From positions 7,808,001 to 7,872,000 of the forward strand of contig OZ245006.1 in the NCBI GenBank assembly GCA_965223545.1: DNA of 64,000 nucleotides, in the 5' to 3' direction. Below the pieces are notes generated by a model that saw only the letters and a program-made list of their open reading frames with translations, had not been told where the DNA came from and searched no databases. The first letter of the stretch is position 1. Each line of letters starts with the position of its first letter. Shown piece after piece: positions 16,677 through 46,993 of the stretch. Source of the DNA: Planctomycetota bacterium. GTDB taxonomy: Bacteria; Planctomycetota; UBA1135; UBA2386. The position numbers and the translations under genes are program-made.

Positions 16677-16930
16677 TGTCGGCCCCTGTCGGCAGCCAGC
16701 TCTGGGACATCGCCAAGGGCTACCAGCGCCAGTGCGTGCCCTACCGCGAGCTGCGTGACTGGGAGCTTGCCAGCTGGGTCGTGCTGGGAGAGCACGTGCC
16801 GCCGCACGAGATGGCCGAGGCGCTTGGTCCGCTGCCGCCGTTCTCAGCCGAGGAACAAGTCTTCGACCCCGCCTCACACGGCCCGATCGCCCCTGGCGAA
16901 ATGGGCTTCGGCTTCTCGGAGGTCGAGTGA
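16673..16930 (+). CDS. Hypothetical protein
   Basis: Coupled to both neighbours. Confidence 0.5.
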   Translation: MMSAPVGSQLWDIAKGYQRQCVPYRELRDWELASWVVLGEHVPPHEMAEALGPLPPFSAEEQVFDPASHGPIAPGEMGFGFSEVE

Positions 16931-24705: not shown

Positions 24706-25227
24706 ATGACATCCGTGCTCGAGGTTGCAAAGTACGTACAGGCAAGGGTTGGTTCTGACTCCAACACGCTGAAGGTCCAGAAGCTGTGCTACTACGCGCA
24801 GGCGTGGCATCTTGCGTGGACGGGGACGCCCTTGTTCGCGGAGCGGATCGAGGCGTGGAGGCTCGGGCCGGTGTGCCCGATCCTCTACGACGCTCAGTAC
24901 CACCAGCAAGAAAAGTTGGTGGGCGAGGGCAAGTTGTCCGAGAAGCAGCGGTTGGTAGTCGACCAAGTGCTGGAGGCTTACGGCAACAAGTCTCCCGGCG
25001 AGCTGTCGGAGCTGACGCATCGGGAGGATCCGTGGCGTGATGCGCGTGGCGACGTGAGTCCCGAGGCGCGGACGAACACCGAGATCTCCCAGGCCGCGAT
25101 GCAGAGCTACTTCTCGGACCAGAAGCTAGCCAGGAGCGAGGAGGAGTGGTCTTCGGATCAATCCTTCGAGGACTTGGCGCGCTCTCTGGCCCGTCAGTAC
25201 TCCAGTCTGCTGCATCGGTTGGCGTGA
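24706..25227 (+). CDS. Panacea (DUF4065/SocA-like) antitoxin
   Basis: LKVQKLCYYAQAWHL, LF.E.IEAW..GPV, L..LTH.E.PW. Confidence 0.9.
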   Translation: MTSVLEVAKYVQARVGSDSNTLKVQKLCYYAQAWHLAWTGTPLFAERIEAWRLGPVCPILYDAQYHQQEKLVGEGKLSEKQRLVVDQVLEAYGNKSPGELSELTHREDPWRDARGDVSPEARTNTEISQAAMQSYFSDQKLARSEEEWSSDQSFEDLARSLARQYSSLLHRLA

Positions 25228-25616
25228 CTACCTGGCTGCCGAGCCAAGATGAGGTCCTCTTCTTGCATCGCCTCGCCCTGGAGAATGGCGGGGGGCAGTC
25301 AGGGGTTCGTGACGAAGCAGCCCTCAAATCTTGCATTGCGCAGCCATCCGGCAGTTTCGCCGGGCGCGACTTGTACGAGGGCACGGTTGCCAAGGTCGTG
25401 CAGCTGGGCTTCCTGATCATCCAGAACCACCCGTTTTTCGATGGCAACAAGCGGACCGGACACATGGCGTTGGTAACGACGTTGGCCGCGAACGGCTGGT
25501 TCCTCCTGGCTACTGACGACGAGCTCCATGACGAGATCATCAGAGTGGCGGAGGGGCGCTCGACTCGCGATCAGTTCCTCGAACGTGTCCGCTACTGGGC
25601 CCAGAGAAGGGTCTAG
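25224..25616 (+). CDS. Fic/Doc family toxin
   Basis: HPFFDGNKRTG, GVRD...L.S; GTGA coupling to the antitoxin gene. Confidence 0.9.
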   Translation: MTTWLPSQDEVLFLHRLALENGGGQSGVRDEAALKSCIAQPSGSFAGRDLYEGTVAKVVQLGFLIIQNHPFFDGNKRTGHMALVTTLAANGWFLLATDDELHDEIIRVAEGRSTRDQFLERVRYWAQRRV

Positions 25617-39479: not shown

Positions 39480-40196
39480 CTACCACTCTCCAGCGTCATC
39501 ATCGTCATCGTCGGCGACAGCGCCTTCCGGCAGTGCGCCGCCGTTGGCAGCCGCTGGAGTCTCAATCGTCAGGCTCTCGTTCCCGCGAAGTACGAGCAAC
39601 GTCACAAGCTCGCCAGGCTCGAGCGTGAGAAATTGCTCTGCAGCTGGCATCACCCCCACTGCGTTGACCTTGGTCGATTTCCCGTTCACCGCGAGAATGC
39701 GGTCGCCAGCGCGGAGGCCGGCCCCTGCGGAATCGGGTGTGGGCGCCAACACGAAGCCGTCAGAATCGATCGATGCACCGATACAACTCTTGGCGATGCG
39801 GTACAAGCCAACTGCGAAGTGGTTTCGATAATTTGCGTACGATCCAAAGATGCCGTAGCCGTGGTACATCGTCGTCGAGCCTGCGTATTGCGAACCTCGA
39901 AACGTCCAAGCTATGACGTCGGGCTTGTGCTTCTTCGACTTGCTCGTCACCCCTTTCGCACCGAGCCGAGTGATCGTCCCGTGGGTGGAGTACGACGCCG
40001 TGGCGTACGGCACCAGCACAGCGACGCCTTCCTCGAACAGTTGCTCGAGCGGTGCGACGATGGGCGGGTCTTGAGTCTGCTCGACTGCGAGTGCGGACTC
40101 GTAGCACGGTAGCTCGCGCAGCTTCCAGTGGCTGCAGGATGGAAGGAGGGCGAGCAGGAGCAGCGAGCGGCAGGGGGTGAGTATCGGCTGGCTCAT
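39480..40196 (-). CDS. PDZ-domain lipoprotein
   Basis: Lipobox LPSC; AGLRAGDRILAVNG..GELVTLLVLRG. Confidence 0.75.
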   Translation of the reverse strand: MSQPILTPCRSLLLLALLPSCSHWKLRELPCYESALAVEQTQDPPIVAPLEQLFEEGVAVLVPYATASYSTHGTITRLGAKGVTSKSKKHKPDVIAWTFRGSQYAGSTTMYHGYGIFGSYANYRNHFAVGLYRIAKSCIGASIDSDGFVLAPTPDSAGAGLRAGDRILAVNGKSTKVNAVGVMPAAEQFLTLEPGELVTLLVLRGNESLTIETPAAANGGALPEGAVADDDDDDAGEW

Positions 40197-40283
40197 GGGG
40201 GTGGGTCGATGTTTGGAACGGCGCTCGCCGTCCCAGCTTTCCTCCCCTGCCCCCGCCCCCGGGCTACGAAACGATGTGCTCGG

Positions 40284-40544
40284 CTAACCGGGTGCTGGCT
40301 GGATCGATCGCGAAATCTGCGGGCAATCTCCGAAATTGAAGTTTGCAAGTGTCCACCCGTGCGACGGGACGGGCCATTCTCCGCAGCCATTCCCTTCAGC
40401 ATCCACGTCGAACGTGACAGAAGATGTTTGCTCTCCGCCATCGTCGATGCTGACCGTCACAGAGCTGTTGGGAGGCCGGCCTGAGATGCAGACTGTCGCG
40501 GTTCCGCCGGCGGTGAGTGGGTCGGGGGTGACGCTCAGGGTCAT
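40284..40544 (-). CDS. Small beta-rich (Ig-like) hypothetical protein
   Basis: LSVTPDP..G.TATV; coupled to the upstream gene. Confidence 0.5.
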   Translation of the reverse strand: MTLSVTPDPLTAGGTATVCISGRPPNSSVTVSIDDGGEQTSSVTFDVDAEGNGCGEWPVPSHGWTLANFNFGDCPQISRSIQPAPG

Positions 40545-40900
40545 CGGAGTTCCTTGCGAAAGTGGTCTTGTTGGATGGAGGCGTCGAGGGCTAAGCCCGG
40601 GTCGTTCTCCGCCTGTCGAATCGCGCGGATTCCGTCGCGGATCGTCGCCGCAAGCTGAAGCAGTGCGGCTTGCCTTCTGCCGTGGGGCTCGCCCGGGGCC
40701 TGAATAATCGAGATGGCTTCACGAGCCGGAAGGCTTGTTCTGCTGCTCCGGCCGTCCCACTTGGCGAACGCATAGCCCGACCCGACCAACGGCGCCGCGC
40801 AAATCAGTATGACCAGCGCCGACCTCAGCGGCCCCGATCGGCGGCGCCTGGGTCGGAAGTCGTCTGGGTAGCGCTGCTCCACTCCCCAGCCCACTAGCAT
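40541..40900 (-). CDS. Single-TM hypothetical protein
   Basis: TM ALVILICAAPLVG; TAATG coupling with the repressor stop. Confidence 0.55.
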   Translation of the reverse strand: MLVGWGVEQRYPDDFRPRRRRSGPLRSALVILICAAPLVGSGYAFAKWDGRSSRTSLPAREAISIIQAPGEPHGRRQAALLQLAATIRDGIRAIRQAENDPGLALDASIQQDHFRKELR

Positions 40901-41391
40901 TAGTTCGGGTCTCCCCTTTGCATCGCTGCCCACTGCTCCCATGCGCCGGGCGCGCGTTCCCGCACGTGCTCCTCACACTGCCGATGCAACGCCTCAGCCT
41001 CTTCCGGTGTGGTCACCCGGAAGGGTGTTGGCACAAGGAACGCAACCTGAAACGGGGGCAGGACCCTCTTGACCAACAGTCCGCGAGCATCCGCGTCGGC
41101 GTTCACGGCCAGCAAGCGTTGGGCGAGGGTTTCGTCAACGACAGCAACCCCACCGAGCAGCTCTGACGGAGGCGTGCCGAGGAGGTAGTTGGCGTCAACC
41201 CGACACCCCTTGCCCTGCAACAGGAGGACGAGGTCGGCCAAGTTGTCAGCGGGTGGTGTCGCCGAACCTGCTTCCCAGTTTTGGAGGGTTTTAAGGCCGA
41301 CGCGGATTGCCTCGGCGGCCTCCTTCTGCGTCAGCCGGGCCTGGCGACGCGCTTTTGCAAGCCGTTGACCGATCGCGATCCTGTCAACCAC
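40900..41391 (-). CDS. XRE-family (CI-like) repressor
   Basis: IGQRL..AR....LTQKEAA..I.V...T..NWE.G...P. Confidence 0.85.
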   Translation of the reverse strand: MVDRIAIGQRLAKARRQARLTQKEAAEAIRVGLKTLQNWEAGSATPPADNLADLVLLLQGKGCRVDANYLLGTPPSELLGGVAVVDETLAQRLLAVNADADARGLLVKRVLPPFQVAFLVPTPFRVTTPEEAEALHRQCEEHVRERAPGAWEQWAAMQRGDPN

Positions 41392-41468
41392 GAGCGGGAA
41401 TGTCCCACCCGGGCCAGACTCCGGCAAGAACAGCCCCAACAAAACTGGGAAAGGGCGGAATGGTGCGC

Positions 41469-41496
41469 TTGACACACGCCAAAAAGTACGTATCCT
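41469..41496 (+). promoter_or_regulatory. Sigma70-like promoter divergent from the repressor
   Basis: TTGACA-N16-TATCCT in a locally AT-rich segment. Confidence 0.65.
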
Positions 41497-42044
41497 GCCC
41501 CCATCAGTCAAGCCCGGACATGATCCAAACCGCCCACTACGCCCCCGGAAGCCGCGATGCGATCGACATCGTGAGCGCGCAGAAAAACGCCGTAGAGGTG
41601 CTGAGCAGGTTGCAGTCATGGGCTCCGACAGGGAATCCCCGAGAGGATGGTCTATCCCGATCAACGCTCAGTTGGCAGGGGCACGGACGCGCAATCTCGG
41701 GCGAAACCCTTCGCATGGGACGCGAACCCGCCGCGAGAAAGTATCGCAGCGGTCTACCGCAAGTTTGCGCGGCGACGCAAGTTGCGCTCTCGCAACCAGC
41801 TTCTGTCACTCTCCCTGGCCTGAACGGGCTCCAGGAGGAACGTTCGCCGTCCCAGGGGCTGGACGACTTTTTTCACGAAATCCGCCGGGTCGGCAACCAG
41901 CCCGGCACCGCTCGACTCCTGGCCAGCACGACGGCGCGGAAGGTGCGCCAAAGCCGGTCAGAGTGGAGCACCTTGAACATGGCGCTGGCGCGCTGCTGCT
42001 CCGGCAGCAACGTCATGGGGCGCGCCAGCGCCGATCTTCCAGGA

Positions 42045-42177
42045 GCGGGGCACCACCCGGGCTACGGCCCGGCCCGCGAGGAACAAGTCGAAGCGGGTCA
42101 CCACCCGAGCCAAAAGCTCGGCCCGCTAGGAACAAGTCGCCGCGGGGCACTACCCAGGCTCGACCAGCCTGGCCCGC
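42045..42177 (+). ncRNA. Candidate structured RNA: three tandem ~48-nt bulged-hairpin units
   Basis: GCGGG-[G/T]CAC[C/T]AC-hairpin-CCCGC-(NAGGAACAAGTCG); inner stems covary; cUACGg tetraloop in unit 1. Confidence 0.7.
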
Positions 42178-42178
42178 A

Positions 42179-42238
42179 CCGTGTTCCGCTCTCCCCGATG
42201 CCTTCCGGTTTCGAGGAGAGCGGGGCGCGGGTCTTTTT
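42179..42238 (+). terminator. Intrinsic terminator
   Basis: 16-bp stem CCGTGTTCCGCTCTCC / GGAGAGCGGGGCGCGG (3 G-U pairs) followed by GTCTTTTT. Confidence 0.7.
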
Positions 42239-42452
42239 CAAGGCGGCGATGGCCGAGCCTCGCCCCTGTCGCTCACTCACTCTTCGCCGCTACCCACAGC
42301 TGACGTTAGTCGCGGGACTCACCACAAGTACACCGGCACCAGCCGCGGGGGAACAAGTCAGGCGAAGAGCAAGGTCGCGTCCAGGGGGTCATCGGCCCGG
42401 TCTGTCGACCGATCTCAACCTATACGCGGCCCCGTGGGAGGGGGCAAGGCGC

Positions 42453-42836
42453 ATGGAGAATTCCGACGTAGATCAGGTCGCCCGTATCGTCTCCTGGCAC
42501 TTCCGATTGCCGCTCGACGAGTTTCACGACCGCGAGGTCCGCACTCGCCAGGCGGTCGCGGCCCGCAGCGTGGCGATGGCTGTGCTGCACCGTTGCGATC
42601 CATGGGCGACGCAGCGTCGCATCGCGGAGGCGATGGGCTGCACCCACCAGACCGTTGGGAACGGCATGGCCCGTGCGCGCGGGACGTACGAGATCCAGCT
42701 CGAGCGTTGCGCGGAGGAGTTCGAGGCATGGCTCGAGCTGCGGGAACAGCGACGGGCTGAACAGCGGGCGGCGGAGCCGGTGGCTGAGGCTGGCGGTGAC
42801 GAGTTCGAGGCTGCGGAGCGGGAGGTCGAGGCGTGA
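42453..42836 (+). CDS. DnaA C-terminal-like HTH protein
   Basis: V...F.L....R.R..V.AR.VAM...L...T..RIA..M..THQTV. Confidence 0.7.
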   Translation: MENSDVDQVARIVSWHFRLPLDEFHDREVRTRQAVAARSVAMAVLHRCDPWATQRRIAEAMGCTHQTVGNGMARARGTYEIQLERCAEEFEAWLELREQRRAEQRAAEPVAEAGGDEFEAAEREVEA

Positions 42837-43036
42837 TTCCGATCGACGAGATCGAGTCGTCGCATGGAAAGCATGCGACACGTGAGAAAGGCGTCTGCCT
42901 CATGGAGGCTGTGGCCTGGTGGCAGGGCGAAGAGCACTCGGACATGCCGGAGTGTGTGTGCTCAGTGATCTTCTTCGCCTCCAACGAGGGTGCGATGGCG
43001 GACTTGGAAGCGTGTGCGGCGGAGGCGGGGGCTTAG
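42833..43036 (+). CDS. Small phage protein (possibly truncated)
   Basis: G.CLMEAVAW..GE.HSD.PECV motif. Confidence 0.5.
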   Translation: MIPIDEIESSHGKHATREKGVCLMEAVAWWQGEEHSDMPECVCSVIFFASNEGAMADLEACAAEAGA

Positions 43037-43040
43037 GGCT

Positions 43041-43487
43041 ATGATGTCAACGCTGAGCAAGTGCCGTTTCTGCCGCAACGGGAAAGTCCTGTTGACGAGG
43101 ACAGATCGCGGGTGGCGACACGTGACCGCTGATGGTCGGCATTGCCGCTGCACTGACCTCAGTCGGGCTACACGGAGCTTGGTGTGGTCCCGCGGGCACA
43201 GGCATCTGGACCGTTGGGGGTGGAACAGCGGGGTTCCGCTGTATTTCATTGAGCTGCTCACCCCCTCGCGAGACGACACGGACCGTCGCGAGTTGTCGAT
43301 CGAATGGGCAGCCCACTGGAGTAAGGTGGTCGGTAGGTTTACGCCAACGCTGCGGGCGAAAGATCTTTGCGAACTGCAGGAGGAGTGTCGGCGGGACTGG
43401 TGTCAATTATCCACCCTGCAGCGAGAGGACATCCTTGCGTCTGAGCGTCGAGCGATGTGGGAACAGAATGCATTGAGGGGCGCTTAG
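43041..43487 (+). CDS. Hypothetical protein
   Basis: CRFC..C zinc-like N-terminus. Confidence 0.45.
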   Translation: MMSTLSKCRFCRNGKVLLTRTDRGWRHVTADGRHCRCTDLSRATRSLVWSRGHRHLDRWGWNSGVPLYFIELLTPSRDDTDRRELSIEWAAHWSKVVGRFTPTLRAKDLCELQEECRRDWCQLSTLQREDILASERRAMWEQNALRGA

Positions 43488-43491
43488 GGCT

Positions 43492-43776
43492 GTGGCAACC
43501 CACCGACAGCCGCGGCCGATCATGCGGACCGCCGAGATTGCGAGGGACTACGGGATCACCGTCTCCGACATTCGGGCCATGGAGCGCATGGGGCAGTTCG
43601 TTGCGATCCAGTGGACAAGCCAGCGTGCCGGCTTTGTCTGCCGTGCTGACTTCTTGCGGTGGTGGGACACGCGTGACGAACGCTGTCGCCAACGCATCGA
43701 ATCCGAGCGCCGCCGCGAGCAGGCGATCACCCACCCAGGGACGACCGCTTATGACTTTCTCTCTTCCTCCAAGTGA
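43492..43776 (+). CDS. Excisionase-like winged-HTH protein
   Basis: MRTAEIARDYGIT..IR.M...G.F; convergent with the integrase. Confidence 0.55.
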   Translation: MATHRQPRPIMRTAEIARDYGITVSDIRAMERMGQFVAIQWTSQRAGFVCRADFLRWWDTRDERCRQRIESERRREQAITHPGTTAYDFLSSSK

Positions 43777-44806
43777 TCGGCTGGATCGCGCGCCGAGCGT
43801 CGCGTCCGACGATACGCGCGTAGTGGCGAGCCATCGAGAGACTGCGGTGTCCGAGCATCTCAGCGATCTGGAACTCGGAGGCTCCGCTCATGGCCATGAT
43901 CGTTCCGAGTGTGTGGCGCAACGCGTGGCAATGCAGTCGTGGCTCACCCAGGCGTTTGCTCCAACGTTTCATCATCGAGAGCAACCCGGAGTAGGAGAGT
44001 GGAAGGAGCGATGCTTGCGGAGTCGCTGGTCCGCGCAGCGCGAGCAGCTCCCGGAACGCGGTTCGCGCATCCTCGTGCAGCGGCACGGTACGCGGTCCTC
44101 GCTTGCCGTGCGGCACCTCAAGCACTCCGCGACGCAGCTGCAGGTGCTCGAGGCGGGCATCCGCGGCCTCGCGCAGGCGGAGCCCGGTCATCAGAAGCAA
44201 CTCGATGATGAGTGCATCACGATCGGAGTTGATGCGCGCGTCACCCTCCCAGCGGCGAATCGCTCGAAGGCCGAGTCGGACCTCGGTGGGGCCGAACCAG
44301 TCGATCTTCGGGGGAGGAGCATCGGGCAAGAACGCGAGGACGCGCTTCAGAGGACTCGGCACACCAGCGACGACGAAACACCGGCCAAGCGCTCGGAGGT
44401 CGGCTCGCACGGTCGACCAGGAGACGGTCTGCGCGCGACGTCTCGCGAACGACTCGATGGCCTCAGGCGTCAGTTGGTAGAGCGCGGGGTTCTCAGGGAA
44501 CTCGCGGGCGAGGAGTTGGAATCGTTCGACGTACCACTGGTGCGTGCGCGGCTTGCGTTCTTTGCGCTCGCAGAGTTCGAGGGCGAGACGCATCGCGCCG
44601 GCGAGCGACATGGGGTCCGGAGGGATGACCCTCTCGCGATGTCGCATTCGCTCGAGGTCGGCGAGCGCTTCGGCTACCGTTGCCCTCGCTGGGCTTGGCA
44701 GCTGTCGACCGTGCTCGAAGACTCGGGCCTTGTAGACGAAGCCGTTCTTGCGGGTGCGAACCTGGATTCCGGCGGGGACTCTCGGCAGCTTCCGACGCGT
44801 GGCCAT
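43727..44806 (-). CDS. int: Tyrosine integrase
   Basis: TGLRL.E, GKRG.R.VP, H.LRH, LGH.S..M..HY. Confidence 0.95.
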   Translation of the reverse strand: MATRRKLPRVPAGIQVRTRKNGFVYKARVFEHGRQLPSPARATVAEALADLERMRHRERVIPPDPMSLAGAMRLALELCERKERKPRTHQWYVERFQLLAREFPENPALYQLTPEAIESFARRRAQTVSWSTVRADLRALGRCFVVAGVPSPLKRVLAFLPDAPPPKIDWFGPTEVRLGLRAIRRWEGDARINSDRDALIIELLLMTGLRLREAADARLEHLQLRRGVLEVPHGKRGPRTVPLHEDARTAFRELLALRGPATPQASLLPLSYSGLLSMMKRWSKRLGEPRLHCHALRHTLGTIMAMSGASEFQIAEMLGHRSLSMARHYARIVGRDARRAIQPITWRKRESHKRSSLGG

Positions 44807-44896
44807 GCTCCATTTGTACCGCGCATCTGTACCGCGGCAAGGCGGGATAGCCGTGGACGGGCGCGAGAAGGCGTCTCCGGTCAATACGGCCGACAG

Positions 44897-44941
44897 CTGT
44901 TAATCAGTGGGTCGCAAGTTCGAGTCTTGCTCGGGGAGCCA
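44897..44941 (+). tRNA. 3' half of tRNA-Asn(GTT): displaced att-site copy, not a complete gene
   Basis: CTGTTAA anticodon loop, T arm GCAAG-TTCGAGT-CTTGC, acceptor 3' strand plus CCA; no D arm or 5' strand upstream. Confidence 0.85.
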
Positions 44942-45005
44942 TTGACGCAAGGAGCCCGGCCTTTGGCCGGGCTCCTTGCGTTAATGGCTCCCCGAGCAAG
45001 ACTCG
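44921..45005. repeat. 41-bp inverted repeat that includes the tRNA 3' end
   Basis: 44921-44961 vs 44965-45005, one mismatch, TTT loop. Confidence 0.9.
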
Positions 45006-45133
45006 GTCCCGCGTTCGTCGTGGCTGGCGCCACTCCGGCCGCGGGATCGAGTCTTTGGGGTTGCGCCGGCTTCGGGACGACGGGAATCGTTCGGCGAGGC
45101 CGGCCTGGGTGGTCGAGGCCGGTACCTGTTGTC

Positions 45134-46993
45134 TCACCACAGCCCCGTCGCCAGTGGGATCCCGAGCGAGGCCACCAGCCAGACGACCAGCGACAACGGG
45201 AGGCCCAGCTTGACGAAGTCCAGGTAGCGGTAGCCGCCGGGACCGCAGACCATCAGATTGACCTGGTGCGCGATCGGGGAGGCGAAGCACATCGAGCCGC
45301 CGTAGCAGACCGCCAAGAGCATGGCGCGCAGCAGGGCTTGGGCTTCGGCGGAGTCGGCGGCGACGCCGCGCGCGGCGGCGAGCTGGGTCGCGGCGGCGAG
45401 CGCGATCGGCGTGAACAGGACTGCCACCGCGCTGTGCGCCACCAGGAAGTTGAACAGTAACCCGAGCAGGACGAAGCCGCTGGCTACCGCGGCGGCTCCC
45501 CAGGGCGAGAGTAGGATCACCAGGTAGTCCGCGCACCAGGCGGCGACGCCGGTTTCCCGCATCGCCTCGCCGAGTGCGAGGGTTCCCGCCAGGAAGACCA
45601 GGATCGACCAGTCGATGGCGCCAAATGCGTGGCGCGTGCTCACCACGCCGGTTGCGACCATCGCCAGCGCCCCGGCGAGGGCGACCGAGCTCGCCGGCAT
45701 CGCCTTCCAGTGGAAGATGGATTGGGCCGACAGGAGCGCGATCACTGCAATTGCGATCAACAGAGCGATGGCCGTGTGGCCGCGGAGTCGCGCGGGCTTC
45801 GGCTCGCCGGCGAGGGCGAAGAAGTCCTGGCTGCCGCGCAGCCGGGCGCGGGATGCCTCGTCGCCGCTCACCAGCAGGACGTCGCCGGGCTGCAGAGCTT
45901 GTTGCCCCACCCGTTCGTGGATGTGGCGGCCGGCGCGCAGCACCGCCATCGGGGTGACGCCGAACCGGGAGTGCATGCCGAGCTCGGTGATCCGCTGTCC
46001 CGCGAGCGTGGAGCGCGGTGCCAGGGCGACCTCGAACAGCTCCACCGTGCGCGGGTCGACCTTCAAGCCGTGCAGCCAATCGAGTCCCGCCGTCCCCGTG
46101 AGAGTGCTGAAGGCTTCGAGCGTGCCGCTGACGACGATCACGTCGCCCGGTTGCACGATTGCGTCGCCGAACGGCTTCTGCTGCATCACCTCGTCCCGGA
46201 TGTAGCACAGCGCCGATGCGCCGCCCTCCGTCAACGGCAGCTCGTAGCGCCGGCCGAGGAGTGCGCTGTCGGCACCGACGCTCAGCTCGGTGACGAAGTC
46301 GCGCTGCGGGCTCTTCTCGATCAGCACGGTCAAGCTCTGCCGGTTCGGCAGGGCGCGGCGCGACACCAGGGCGAGGAAAGCGATCCCGGCCAGGGCCATC
46401 GGCACACCGACCGGTGTCACGCTGAACATCGTCAGCGGCGGGGCGCCCAGCTGTTCGGCGAGGCCGCTGACGATCAGGTTGGTCGACGTGCCGACCAGCG
46501 TGCAGATGCCGCCGAGGAGCGCGGCGAACGACATCGGCATCAGCAATCTCGAGGCCGGGATCCCGCTCTTGGCCGACAGCTTGAGCAGCACGGGGATCAT
46601 CACCACGACCACCGCCGTGTCGTTGAGGAACGCGGACATGGCGGCCGCCATCAGGCACAGCACCAGCACCAGGCGCCACTCCTGGCCGGCACTCAAGCGG
46701 GCCAGCAGCCGGCCGAACAGCTCCATTGCCCCGGTGCGCGTCAGTCCCTCTCCGATGACGTAGAGGCCGGCGATCGTCAGCACCGCCTTGTTGGCGAAGC
46801 CTGCCGCCGCGGTGCCGGTATCGATGACTCCCAGCAGGGGCAGCGCGACGACCAGCATGAGGCCGAGCGCGGCGAACGATGCCAGCTCGGTCACCAGCAG
46901 CACCAGAAAGACCGCGGTGGCGGCGAGTACCAAGAAGCCGTCGGAACCGAGCTCCGCGGCCGCGATCGTGGACAGCGCCATCCGGTCGGTCAT
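45134..46993 (-). CDS. SLC13 family permease with TrkA-C domains
   Basis: SAFLNDT..V, LMPMSFAALLGG.CTLVGTSTN, SPI.HQ.N.MV.GPGGY...DF.K.G. Confidence 0.92.
   Translation of the reverse strand: MTDRMALSTIAAAELGSDGFLVLAATAVFLVLLVTELASFAALGLMLVVALPLLGVIDTGTAAAGFANKAVLTIAGLYVIGEGLTRTGAMELFGRLLARLSAGQEWRLVLVLCLMAAAMSAFLNDTAVVVVMIPVLLKLSAKSGIPASRLLMPMSFAALLGGICTLVGTSTNLIVSGLAEQLGAPPLTMFSVTPVGVPMALAGIAFLALVSRRALPNRQSLTVLIEKSPQRDFVTELSVGADSALLGRRYELPLTEGGASALCYIRDEVMQQKPFGDAIVQPGDVIVVSGTLEAFSTLTGTAGLDWLHGLKVDPRTVELFEVALAPRSTLAGQRITELGMHSRFGVTPMAVLRAGRHIHERVGQQALQPGDVLLVSGDEASRARLRGSQDFFALAGEPKPARLRGHTAIALLIAIAVIALLSAQSIFHWKAMPASSVALAGALAMVATGVVSTRHAFGAIDWSILVFLAGTLALGEAMRETGVAAWCADYLVILLSPWGAAAVASGFVLLGLLFNFLVAHSAVAVLFTPIALAAATQLAAARGVAADSAEAQALLRAMLLAVCYGGSMCFASPIAHQVNLMVCGPGGYRYLDFVKLGLPLSLVVWLVASLGIPLATGLW

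What the first reader, a model, noticed from the sequence alone, without database searches (positions are those of the whole stretch)
42045..42360. Tandem array of covarying bulged-hairpin RNA units in the immunity region
Seen: units at 42045, 42093 and 42142 each have an outer stem GCGGG/CCCGC and a 7-nt bulge (G/T)CAC(C/T)AC. The inner hairpin changes sequence but keeps its pairing (CCGGGC-tacg-GCCCGG; CCGAGC-caaaa-GCTCGG; CCAGGCT-cgacc-AGCCTGG), and a conserved linker AGGAACAAGTCG joins the units. A fourth degenerate unit (CGCGG..CACCAC..CCGCG-GGGGAACAAGTC, ~42321-42359) lies after the terminator, inside another stem. Compensatory changes and a C(UACG)G tetraloop indicate + strand RNA structure. 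Inference: a multi-unit phage RNA that could be processed at the linkers into small RNAs, titrate a protein that also binds the fourth unit in the early-gene leader, or act as a decoy for host defence (type III antitoxin or crRNA mimic). This is the best candidate for an undescribed system.
Basis: partly seen in the sequence, partly recalled or inferred. Interest (0 to 1): 0.88.

Follow-up and report, generated by a model that had tools for sequence, protein, structure and literature searches.

The report
Prophage RNA array matching gene-start signals
A bacterial prophage has three tandem RNA hairpins just before a transcription stop signal, and they display the same two short signals found at the starts of four of its other genes, which suggests an untested RNA switch or decoy that coordinates phage gene expression.

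Summary
The array is real. Three bulged hairpins lie at 42045-42177, joined by two identical linkers and followed by a terminator-like hairpin; they are the only such tandem in the 8.1-Mb genome. The fourth unit keeps the motifs but folds weakly. The window is part of a 77.5-kb prophage. The units' two exposed motifs, a (CACYAC) and b (RGGAACAAG), recur outside the window. In three gene leaders, a is a hairpin loop and b is the Shine-Dalgarno region. In a fourth gene they are joined (b-a) in the first codons, sharing 13 nt with linker 2. Folding predicts a 12-bp antiterminator between unit 1 and the terminator. Best reading: a multi-site RNA operator and attenuator, also a titrating decoy, for a phage post-transcriptional repressor; the logic resembles P1 c4 and P4 CI. 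The effector was not identified: it could be an antisense RNA or a protein. It is not a C4 Rfam member. No homologue and no expression data were found, and the covariation is not significant and does not fix the strand. Type III antitoxin and crRNA mimicry are unsupported.

The parts
40900..41391 (-). CI-like HTH repressor gene (start codon uncertain)
   Evidence: Pfam HTH_3/HTH_19 E 2e-8 to 3e-8; PHROG repressor families
41469..41496 (+). sigma70-type rightward promoter (PR-like) upstream of the array
   Evidence: TTGACA-16-TATCCT, 10 of 12, the only hit in 40000-45200
41483..41511 (-). possible leftward repressor promoter overlapping PR; it would not transcribe the array
   Evidence: TTGACT-17-TACTTT read by eye; 8 of 12, below the scan threshold
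42042..42053 (+). predicted antiterminator strand (unit-1 5' stem plus the first three bases of a1); pairs with 42181-42192
   Evidence: pair probability 1.0 in nascent RNA, 0.27-0.47 when a1 is held unpaired; 12-bp helix reached by 1.0% of 3000 random windows
42045..42077 (+). unit 1: 5-bp stem, 7-nt bulge carrying motif a, hairpin with UACG loop
42079..42090 (+). linker 1, motif b
   Evidence: mean unpaired probability about 0.69
42093..42126 (+). unit 2
   Evidence: (z -3.54)
42128..42141 (+). linker 2, motif b; 13 nt (42129-41) identical to the 5' end of the leftward gene at G000:C1:7803342
   Evidence: the 13-mer occurs 3 times in the genome
42142..42177 (+). unit 3 (bulge variant CACTAC, no linker behind it)
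42179..42239 (+). terminator-like hairpin with G.U pairs in its lower stem and a U-run
   Evidence: Rfam gives only chance miRNA matches; not flagged
42280..42369 (+). fourth a-b site (a 42320-25, b 42349-59) inside a 9-bp closing stem
   Evidence: internal fold weak
42419..42447 (-). weak candidate leftward promoter (7 of 12) that would transcribe the array antisense; not significant
   Evidence: read by eye; not found
42453..42836 (+). first clear gene behind the leader, DnaA_C-like HTH protein without relatives
   Evidence: PF08299 E 3.5e-6, below cut-off
43492..43776 (+). excisionase-like gene
   Evidence: phrog_66 E 9.9e-6
43727..44806 (-). tyrosine integrase
   Evidence: PF00589 E 2.4e-23
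44897..44942 (+). attR: 46-bp copy of the 3' part of a tRNA gene; defines the prophage G000:C1:7775442-7852941

Best explanation
The array is a multi-site copy of a phage-wide bipartite RNA operator: motif a (CACYAC) shown in a 7-8-nt loop or bulge, and motif b (RGGAACAAG) single-stranded. A phage trans-acting repressor binds it. At four gene starts elsewhere in the prophage, binding would block translation. In the PR leader, binding to a1 would keep unit 1 folded, prevent the unit-1/terminator antiterminator and so favour termination before the HTH and excisionase genes. The released RNA, with three a and two b sites, would also soak up the repressor and set a threshold. Shown: the sequences, their enrichment and their positions. 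Predicted: the folds and the antiterminator. Inferred: transcription, the repressor and the sign of regulation. Within this model I put about 55:45 on an antisense RNA (complement of the b-a start of the leftward gene) against a protein.
For: The a..b pattern occurs 6 times in the 77.5-kb prophage and once in the other 8.0 Mb (0.01 expected). Three of the six are independent of the array from which the pattern was drawn; each has a in a hairpin loop and b 2-4 nt before the ATG of a predicted gene. The b..a order occurs at the two array junctions, at the start of the leftward gene and once in the host. That gene is real (relatives to E 2e-18) and its relatives have other N-termini. Two of the three promoter hits in 18 kb of L011 lead directly into such sites. 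a sites are 97-99% unpaired in the terminated RNA. Antiterminator. The variants CACUAC and GGGAAC keep pairing to a complementary RNA through G.U. Published c4 targets have the same layout, with b' occluding the ribosome-binding site and a' binding upstream (PMC5320573 passages).
Against: No effector was identified. No separate RNA with the c4 order b'-a' exists in the prophage, and the only a'-b' stretch has no promoter, terminator or stable fold. Its order suits the array junctions but not simultaneous pairing with the a-b leaders. No homologue of the array was found. The antiterminator is not unusual when interior loops are allowed (12.5% of random windows, 25.6% of shuffles), and the finished terminator beats it by 11 kcal/mol, so the switch needs kinetic control. 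Blocking the b linkers alone did not change it. b contains an ordinary Shine-Dalgarno core; 1 of 68 vipr leaders has it without a. Unit 4 precedes no start codon.
Confidence: 0.55

Rival explanations
1. The array is a trans-acting decoy only (CsrB-like protein sponge or anti-sRNA). The hairpin at 42179 merely ends it, and there is no attenuation switch.
For: Repeated exposed sites in the same sense as the targets, followed by a terminator. Linker 2 plus bulge 3 copy the leftward gene's 5' end once the stem strand is left out. The antiterminator statistics depend on the test.
Against: No CsrA or Hfq was found in the 91%-complete host (controls rang). The 12-bp helix covers a1 and the G.U-rich arm of the terminator.
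Confidence: 0.2
2. The - strand of the array is the effector: tandem c4/CI-like antisense units (b' single-stranded, a' in a bulge) made from a leftward promoter near 42420-47. They would pair with the a-b leaders within a unit and with the b-a gene across a junction.
For: The stems are strand-symmetric. One RNA would explain both motif orders. Predicted net binding is -9.7 to -25 kcal/mol to the four gene starts.
Against: The promoter is only 7 of 12 and was not found by the scan. The unit-3 and unit-4 variants become mismatches. The UACG loop and the G.U pairs favour the + strand.
Confidence: 0.1
3. The sites are nut/put-like positive elements: a phage antitermination or translation-activating factor is loaded at a-b sites behind early promoters.
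For: The sites lie just behind promoters and just before a terminator. A 58-codon arginine-rich ORF at 41647-41823 could encode an N-like peptide (resemblance recalled).
Against: In the folding model, occupying a1 weakens the antiterminator. The ORF has no family hit and a poor ribosome-binding site.
Confidence: 0.08
4. The motifs are DNA sites (stoperator- or SAS-like) and the hairpins are incidental.
For: The a-to-b spacing is 29-32 nt at 5 of 6 sites and 21 nt at one. Start-associated repeats of unknown function are known in cluster K mycobacteriophages (PMC3203893 passages).
Against: a is unpaired inside stems of unrelated sequence, one of them with G.U pairs.
Confidence: 0.04
5. Decoy against host defence (type III antitoxin or crRNA mimic).
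For: About 48-nt tandem units with conserved single-stranded linkers.
Against: No toxin neighbour or ToxN hit. The bulge and linker are not complementary, so no pseudoknot. No CRISPR array was seen (uncontrolled). It does not explain the gene-start copies.
Confidence: 0.03

Closest known systems
P1/P7 c4 antisense RNA with its a/b targets (Rfam C4, RF01695; C4-a1b1)
   Same: Two-part recognition, with b over the ribosome-binding site and a upstream (PMC5320573 passages); prophage control region.
   Different: No Rfam match anywhere in the prophage; no three-stem c4 RNA with b'-a'; sites are spread over four distant genes and repeated in tandem.
P4 CI RNA / seqA / seqC (and Gifsy-1 IsrK)
   Same: A leader RNA whose recognition is predicted to cause premature termination (PMC4825925 passage).
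   Different: CI lies in the same transcript between its complementary targets. Here the leader holds only same-sense sites plus a 7-nt partial complement in the terminator arm.
P22 immI arc-ant-sar (recalled)
   Same: An RHH-like gene (NikA-like E 2.8e-4) precedes the leftward gene whose start would be covered by an antisense RNA.
   Different: The gene is not shown to be an antirepressor (no fold match), no antisense promoter was found, and no tandem decoy is recalled for Sar.
CsrB/RsmZ sponges; prophage anti-sRNA AgvB and sponge SprY
   Same: An RNA that repeats or mimics target sites of a repressor (AgvB and SprY: PMC12197685 passages; CsrB recalled).
   Different: The targets are the phage's own genes, the site is bipartite, and CsrA and Hfq were not found in the host.
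Start-associated sequences of cluster K mycobacteriophages
   Same: A phage-specific repeat over ribosome-binding sites, with an upstream inverted repeat in some (PMC3203893 passages).
   Different: Different sequence, only four gene-start copies here, a conserved loop motif, and a tandem array with a terminator.

Membership tests
C4 antisense RNA / P4 CI | Match to the Rfam C4-type models | tested here: not met
   0 hits at gathering score in the window; none at E<=1 in L010/L011 or at E<=10 in 41300-43800
C4 antisense RNA / P4 CI | Separate effector with b' and a' complementary to the targets, on the same strand and transcript | tested here: not met
   0 b'..a' on the + strand of the prophage even with wobble; one a'-b' stretch, 46 kb away
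C4 antisense RNA / P4 CI | Targets with b over the ribosome-binding site and a upstream | tested here: met
   3 leaders
C4 antisense RNA / P4 CI | RNase P processing and repression by pairing | not testable with these tools
   no RNA holder listed
Transcription attenuator | Mutually exclusive terminator and antiterminator | tested here: inconclusive
   predicted; 0.5-1% of random windows by the contiguous test, 12-26% by the looser test
Csr/Rsm sponge | CsrA in the host | tested here: inconclusive
   PF02599 not found in a 91%-complete genome; control rang in 3 of 14
Csr/Rsm sponge | GGA motifs in hairpin loops | tested here: not met
   GGA lies in the linkers; loops are TACG, CAAAA, CGACC
Type III toxin-antitoxin antitoxin | Toxin gene right behind the repeats and terminator | tested here: not met
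   the next gene is a DnaA_C-like HTH; PF13958 not found, but that control did not ring
Type III toxin-antitoxin antitoxin | Pseudoknotted units | tested here: inconclusive
   bulge and linker are not complementary by inspection; no pseudoknot program was run
RNA anti-CRISPR (crRNA mimic) | Likeness to a host CRISPR repeat | tested here: inconclusive
   no array found by a simple scan without positive control; no Rfam CRISPR-repeat hit
VIPR RNA | Five-base periodic triplet/NN tract | tested here: not met
   9 tracts on the + strand of the prophage, all beside the vipr-like gene, none in the array; 0 of 68 distinct vipr-relative leaders carry both a and b

The most novel reading that the evidence does not exclude
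A phage-wide post-transcriptional regulon is run by one two-part RNA code. A tandem RNA rebuilds, on its single-stranded surface, the 5' end of a phage mRNA, and acts at once as attenuator sensor and as titrating decoy for the repressor. The repressor also controls the recombination operon and a VIPR RNA-guided system. This would be a second, RNA-level lysis-lysogeny switch with a built-in threshold.
Probability: 0.3. Interest if true: 0.8.

Novelty: new variant of a known kind. Interest (0 to 1): 0.58.

Why it matters
RNA-level immunity is well known from a few enterobacterial phages, where one antisense RNA controls the operon it lies in. Here one two-part code seems to link a tandem leader array, an attenuator and four distant gene starts, including that of a VIPR system, in an uncultured lineage. 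If true, it shows phage regulons coordinated by a shared RNA operator with a multi-site decoy. The predictions are exact and cheap to test with reporters. The weight is limited by having one genome, no homologue, no RNA data and no identified effector.

Tried and rejected
Homologue searches, all empty or at chance level. Viral contigs with DNA patterns: 9 loci, 67, 25 and 20; none was array-like. Species genomes: 5 loci, none an array. 200 order-level genomes matched the a..b pattern at the rate of the reversed control. blastn over 338 class genomes gave a best E of 3.9e-6, inside a coding sequence; 11 loci were examined. Sequence model R1: only its 7 training sites in the own genome, 8 single hits with E>=0.001 in 149 other genomes, of which 2 were inspected, and 0 in 81 phage loci. 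GenBank phages gave 3 short chance hits. The repressor and the DnaA_C-like protein have no relatives. The leftward gene had none in 338 class genomes (54) or viral contigs and one metagenome locus without the motifs. Six integrase relatives were fetched: 0 tandem arrays; three leaders were read and two have a single terminator hairpin. One tandem in vipr-relative loci is a duplication inside a gene. Sequencing runs: no RNA holder listed; four low-share runs gave 5 short identical pieces of flanking DNA and one unrelated piece, none over the array. Vipr autoregulation was rejected. Linker-to-terminator pairing as the antiterminator was rejected (P<=0.01). The long open frame 41520-42836 and the small leader ORFs have no family hit; the Atlas hits to DUF1403 were taken as uninformative. 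The leftward protein has no clear fold match. No tRNA or tmRNA carries both complements. Literature searches (listings only) showed no such array. The host lineage was not determined.

Full report
Observation. The three units, two linkers, terminator-like hairpin and fourth site are present as described. The region folds far better than shuffles (z -4.52). A structure-only scan of both strands of the genome gave 2 tandem pairs among 2141 bulged-hairpin positions, both in this array. Two claims need trimming. Covariation is 2 of 11 pairs, matched by 50 of 500 shuffles. All unit pairs are Watson-Crick, so they cannot fix the strand. The + strand is favoured by the promoter at 41469-96, G.U pairs in the terminator and one leader, and the UACG loop. 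Unit 4 keeps the motifs but has no significant fold. Rfam has no match.

Context. The window is G000:C1:7808001-7872000. A 46-bp repeat of a tRNA 3' part bounds a prophage at C1:7775442-7852941. The array lies about 550 nt behind the rightward promoter that diverges from an HTH repressor, and ahead of a DnaA_C-like HTH gene, an excisionase and a convergent integrase. No protein family was found in the 950-nt leader.

The motifs recur at gene starts. Call the bulge motif a (CACYAC) and the linker motif b (RGGAACAAG). The pattern a..b occurs 6 times in the prophage and once in the remaining 8.0 Mb, against 0.01 expected. Three hits are units 1, 2 and 4, which defined the pattern. The other three are independent: C1:7790736 (before a Vipr/RAMP-like gene), 7803701 (first gene of the operon holding the RecE-like gene) and 7804436 (an internal gene of that operon). 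In each, a is a 7-8-nt hairpin loop closed by an unrelated stem, and b ends 2-4 nt before the ATG. A further site has the motifs joined as b-a in codons 1-7 of a leftward 86-codon gene at C1:7803344, directly behind a promoter hit. It shares a 13-mer with linker 2 that occurs 3 times in the genome. The gene is real, and its relatives have different N-termini, so the match is not a protein constraint. Linker 2 followed by bulge 3, with the stem strand left out, nearly reproduces that 5' end. Against over-reading: b holds an ordinary Shine-Dalgarno core, 7 of 10 b-ATG matches lie outside the prophage, and 1 of 68 vipr-relative leaders has b without a.

A predicted switch. Before the terminator's 3' arm is made, 42042-53 (unit-1 stem strand plus the first three bases of a1) pairs with the terminator's 5' arm, 42181-92. 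Its probability is 1.0 in nascent RNA, 0.27-0.47 if a1 is held unpaired, and unchanged if only the linkers are blocked. A contiguous helix this long occurs in 1.0% of 3000 random windows, and one this stable in 0.5%. With interior loops allowed, 12.5% of windows and 25.6% of shuffles do as well. The finished terminator wins by 11 kcal/mol, so the switch would have to be kinetic. It is plausible, not established.

Mechanism. Most likely (0.55) the array is a multi-site operator for a phage post-transcriptional repressor: it senses the repressor to trigger termination, and it titrates it once released. The same repressor would block the four gene starts. The layout of the leaders is that of c4 targets (PMC5320573, passages), and termination on recognition is the P4 CI logic (PMC4825925, one passage). 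The effector is open. An antisense RNA over the leftward gene's start fits the long shared sequence and the wobble-compatible variants, and binds the folded array with a predicted -15 to -16.5 kcal/mol. But it has no promoter or fold, and its a'-b' order does not suit the a-b leaders. No b'-a' RNA exists in the prophage apart from the antisense strands of the sites. A protein fits the flexible order and spacing, but no candidate was found; CsrA and Hfq were not detected. Rivals: decoy only (0.2), - strand units as effector (0.1), positive nut-like sites (0.08), DNA sites (0.04), host-defence decoy (0.03).

Relatives. None was found; see Tried and rejected. Three related integrative elements whose leaders were read lack the array. 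No RNA run was listed. The claim rests on one genome.

Comparison and verdict. It works like c4/CI immunity or a target-mimic sponge, but fails the C4 membership tests. It is not a VIPR RNA (10.64898/2026.04.26.720920, parts 1-2 of 6 read; 10.64898/2026.10.15.759431, abstract and outline only, whose supplements are closed). For PMC2864571 I saw supplement passages only; for PMC3203893 and PMC12197685, passages. P22 sar, lambda nut and PRE, and CsrB are recalled. Seven literature searches, seen as listings only, showed no tandem array of this kind; subscription papers are not covered. Two earlier AI notes describe related themes in other genomes and were not checked. Verdict: a real feature and a new variant of RNA-level phage control with an unidentified effector; interest 0.58.

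Noticed in passing
L011:776-2930 (G000:C1:7790776-7792930, same prophage, outside the window): VIPR-like system: a RAMP-type gene with 530 relatives, two small genes, and 9 five-base periodic tracts with a CGC/YRC triplet rather than GGY. Its leader carries one a-b hairpin.
   Followed up: partly
G000:C1:4165824 and 4170953 (L263): Two of the 9 tracts have their best one-skip match (29 of 38 and 27 of 34 positions) 5 kb apart in a satellite-like element with an integrase-like gene; no null model was run.
   Followed up: partly
G000:C1:4165094 (+): The same satellite-like element holds a near-contiguous b'-a' complement inside a long ORF; 2 such near-contiguous matches are listed genome-wide. 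Possibly chance.
   Followed up: no
L011:13084-13740: Second control region: an RHH-like gene between two divergent promoters that share a 10-nt sequence over their -35 boxes, probably an operator.
   Followed up: partly
window 41829-42045: Further stable hairpins ahead of unit 1, among them a terminator-like one at 41848-71, a 13-bp inverted repeat (41981-93/42020-32) and a possible degenerate unit near 41918-60.
   Followed up: partly
L257 and L258 leaders; window 42013-18: The leader terminators of two related elements share a CATGG loop motif, also seen in a bulge of this leader.
   Followed up: no
window 41520-42836 (+): An open frame of 438 codons runs through the whole leader into the HTH gene; part of its first 80 codons looks faintly Cro-like by eye, but has no family hit.
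   Followed up: partly
window 24706-25616: Panacea (SocA-like) antitoxin and Fic/Doc gene pair among the tail genes.
   Followed up: no
window 16851-16861: A lone b motif inside a gene, with no a nearby.
   Followed up: partly
L100:1100-1998: A relative of the leftward gene lies among small genes each preceded by a repeated promoter-like 40-nt sequence.
   Followed up: no
G000:C2 (39.6 kb): The second contig looks like another phage genome and lacks the a-b pattern.
   Followed up: no
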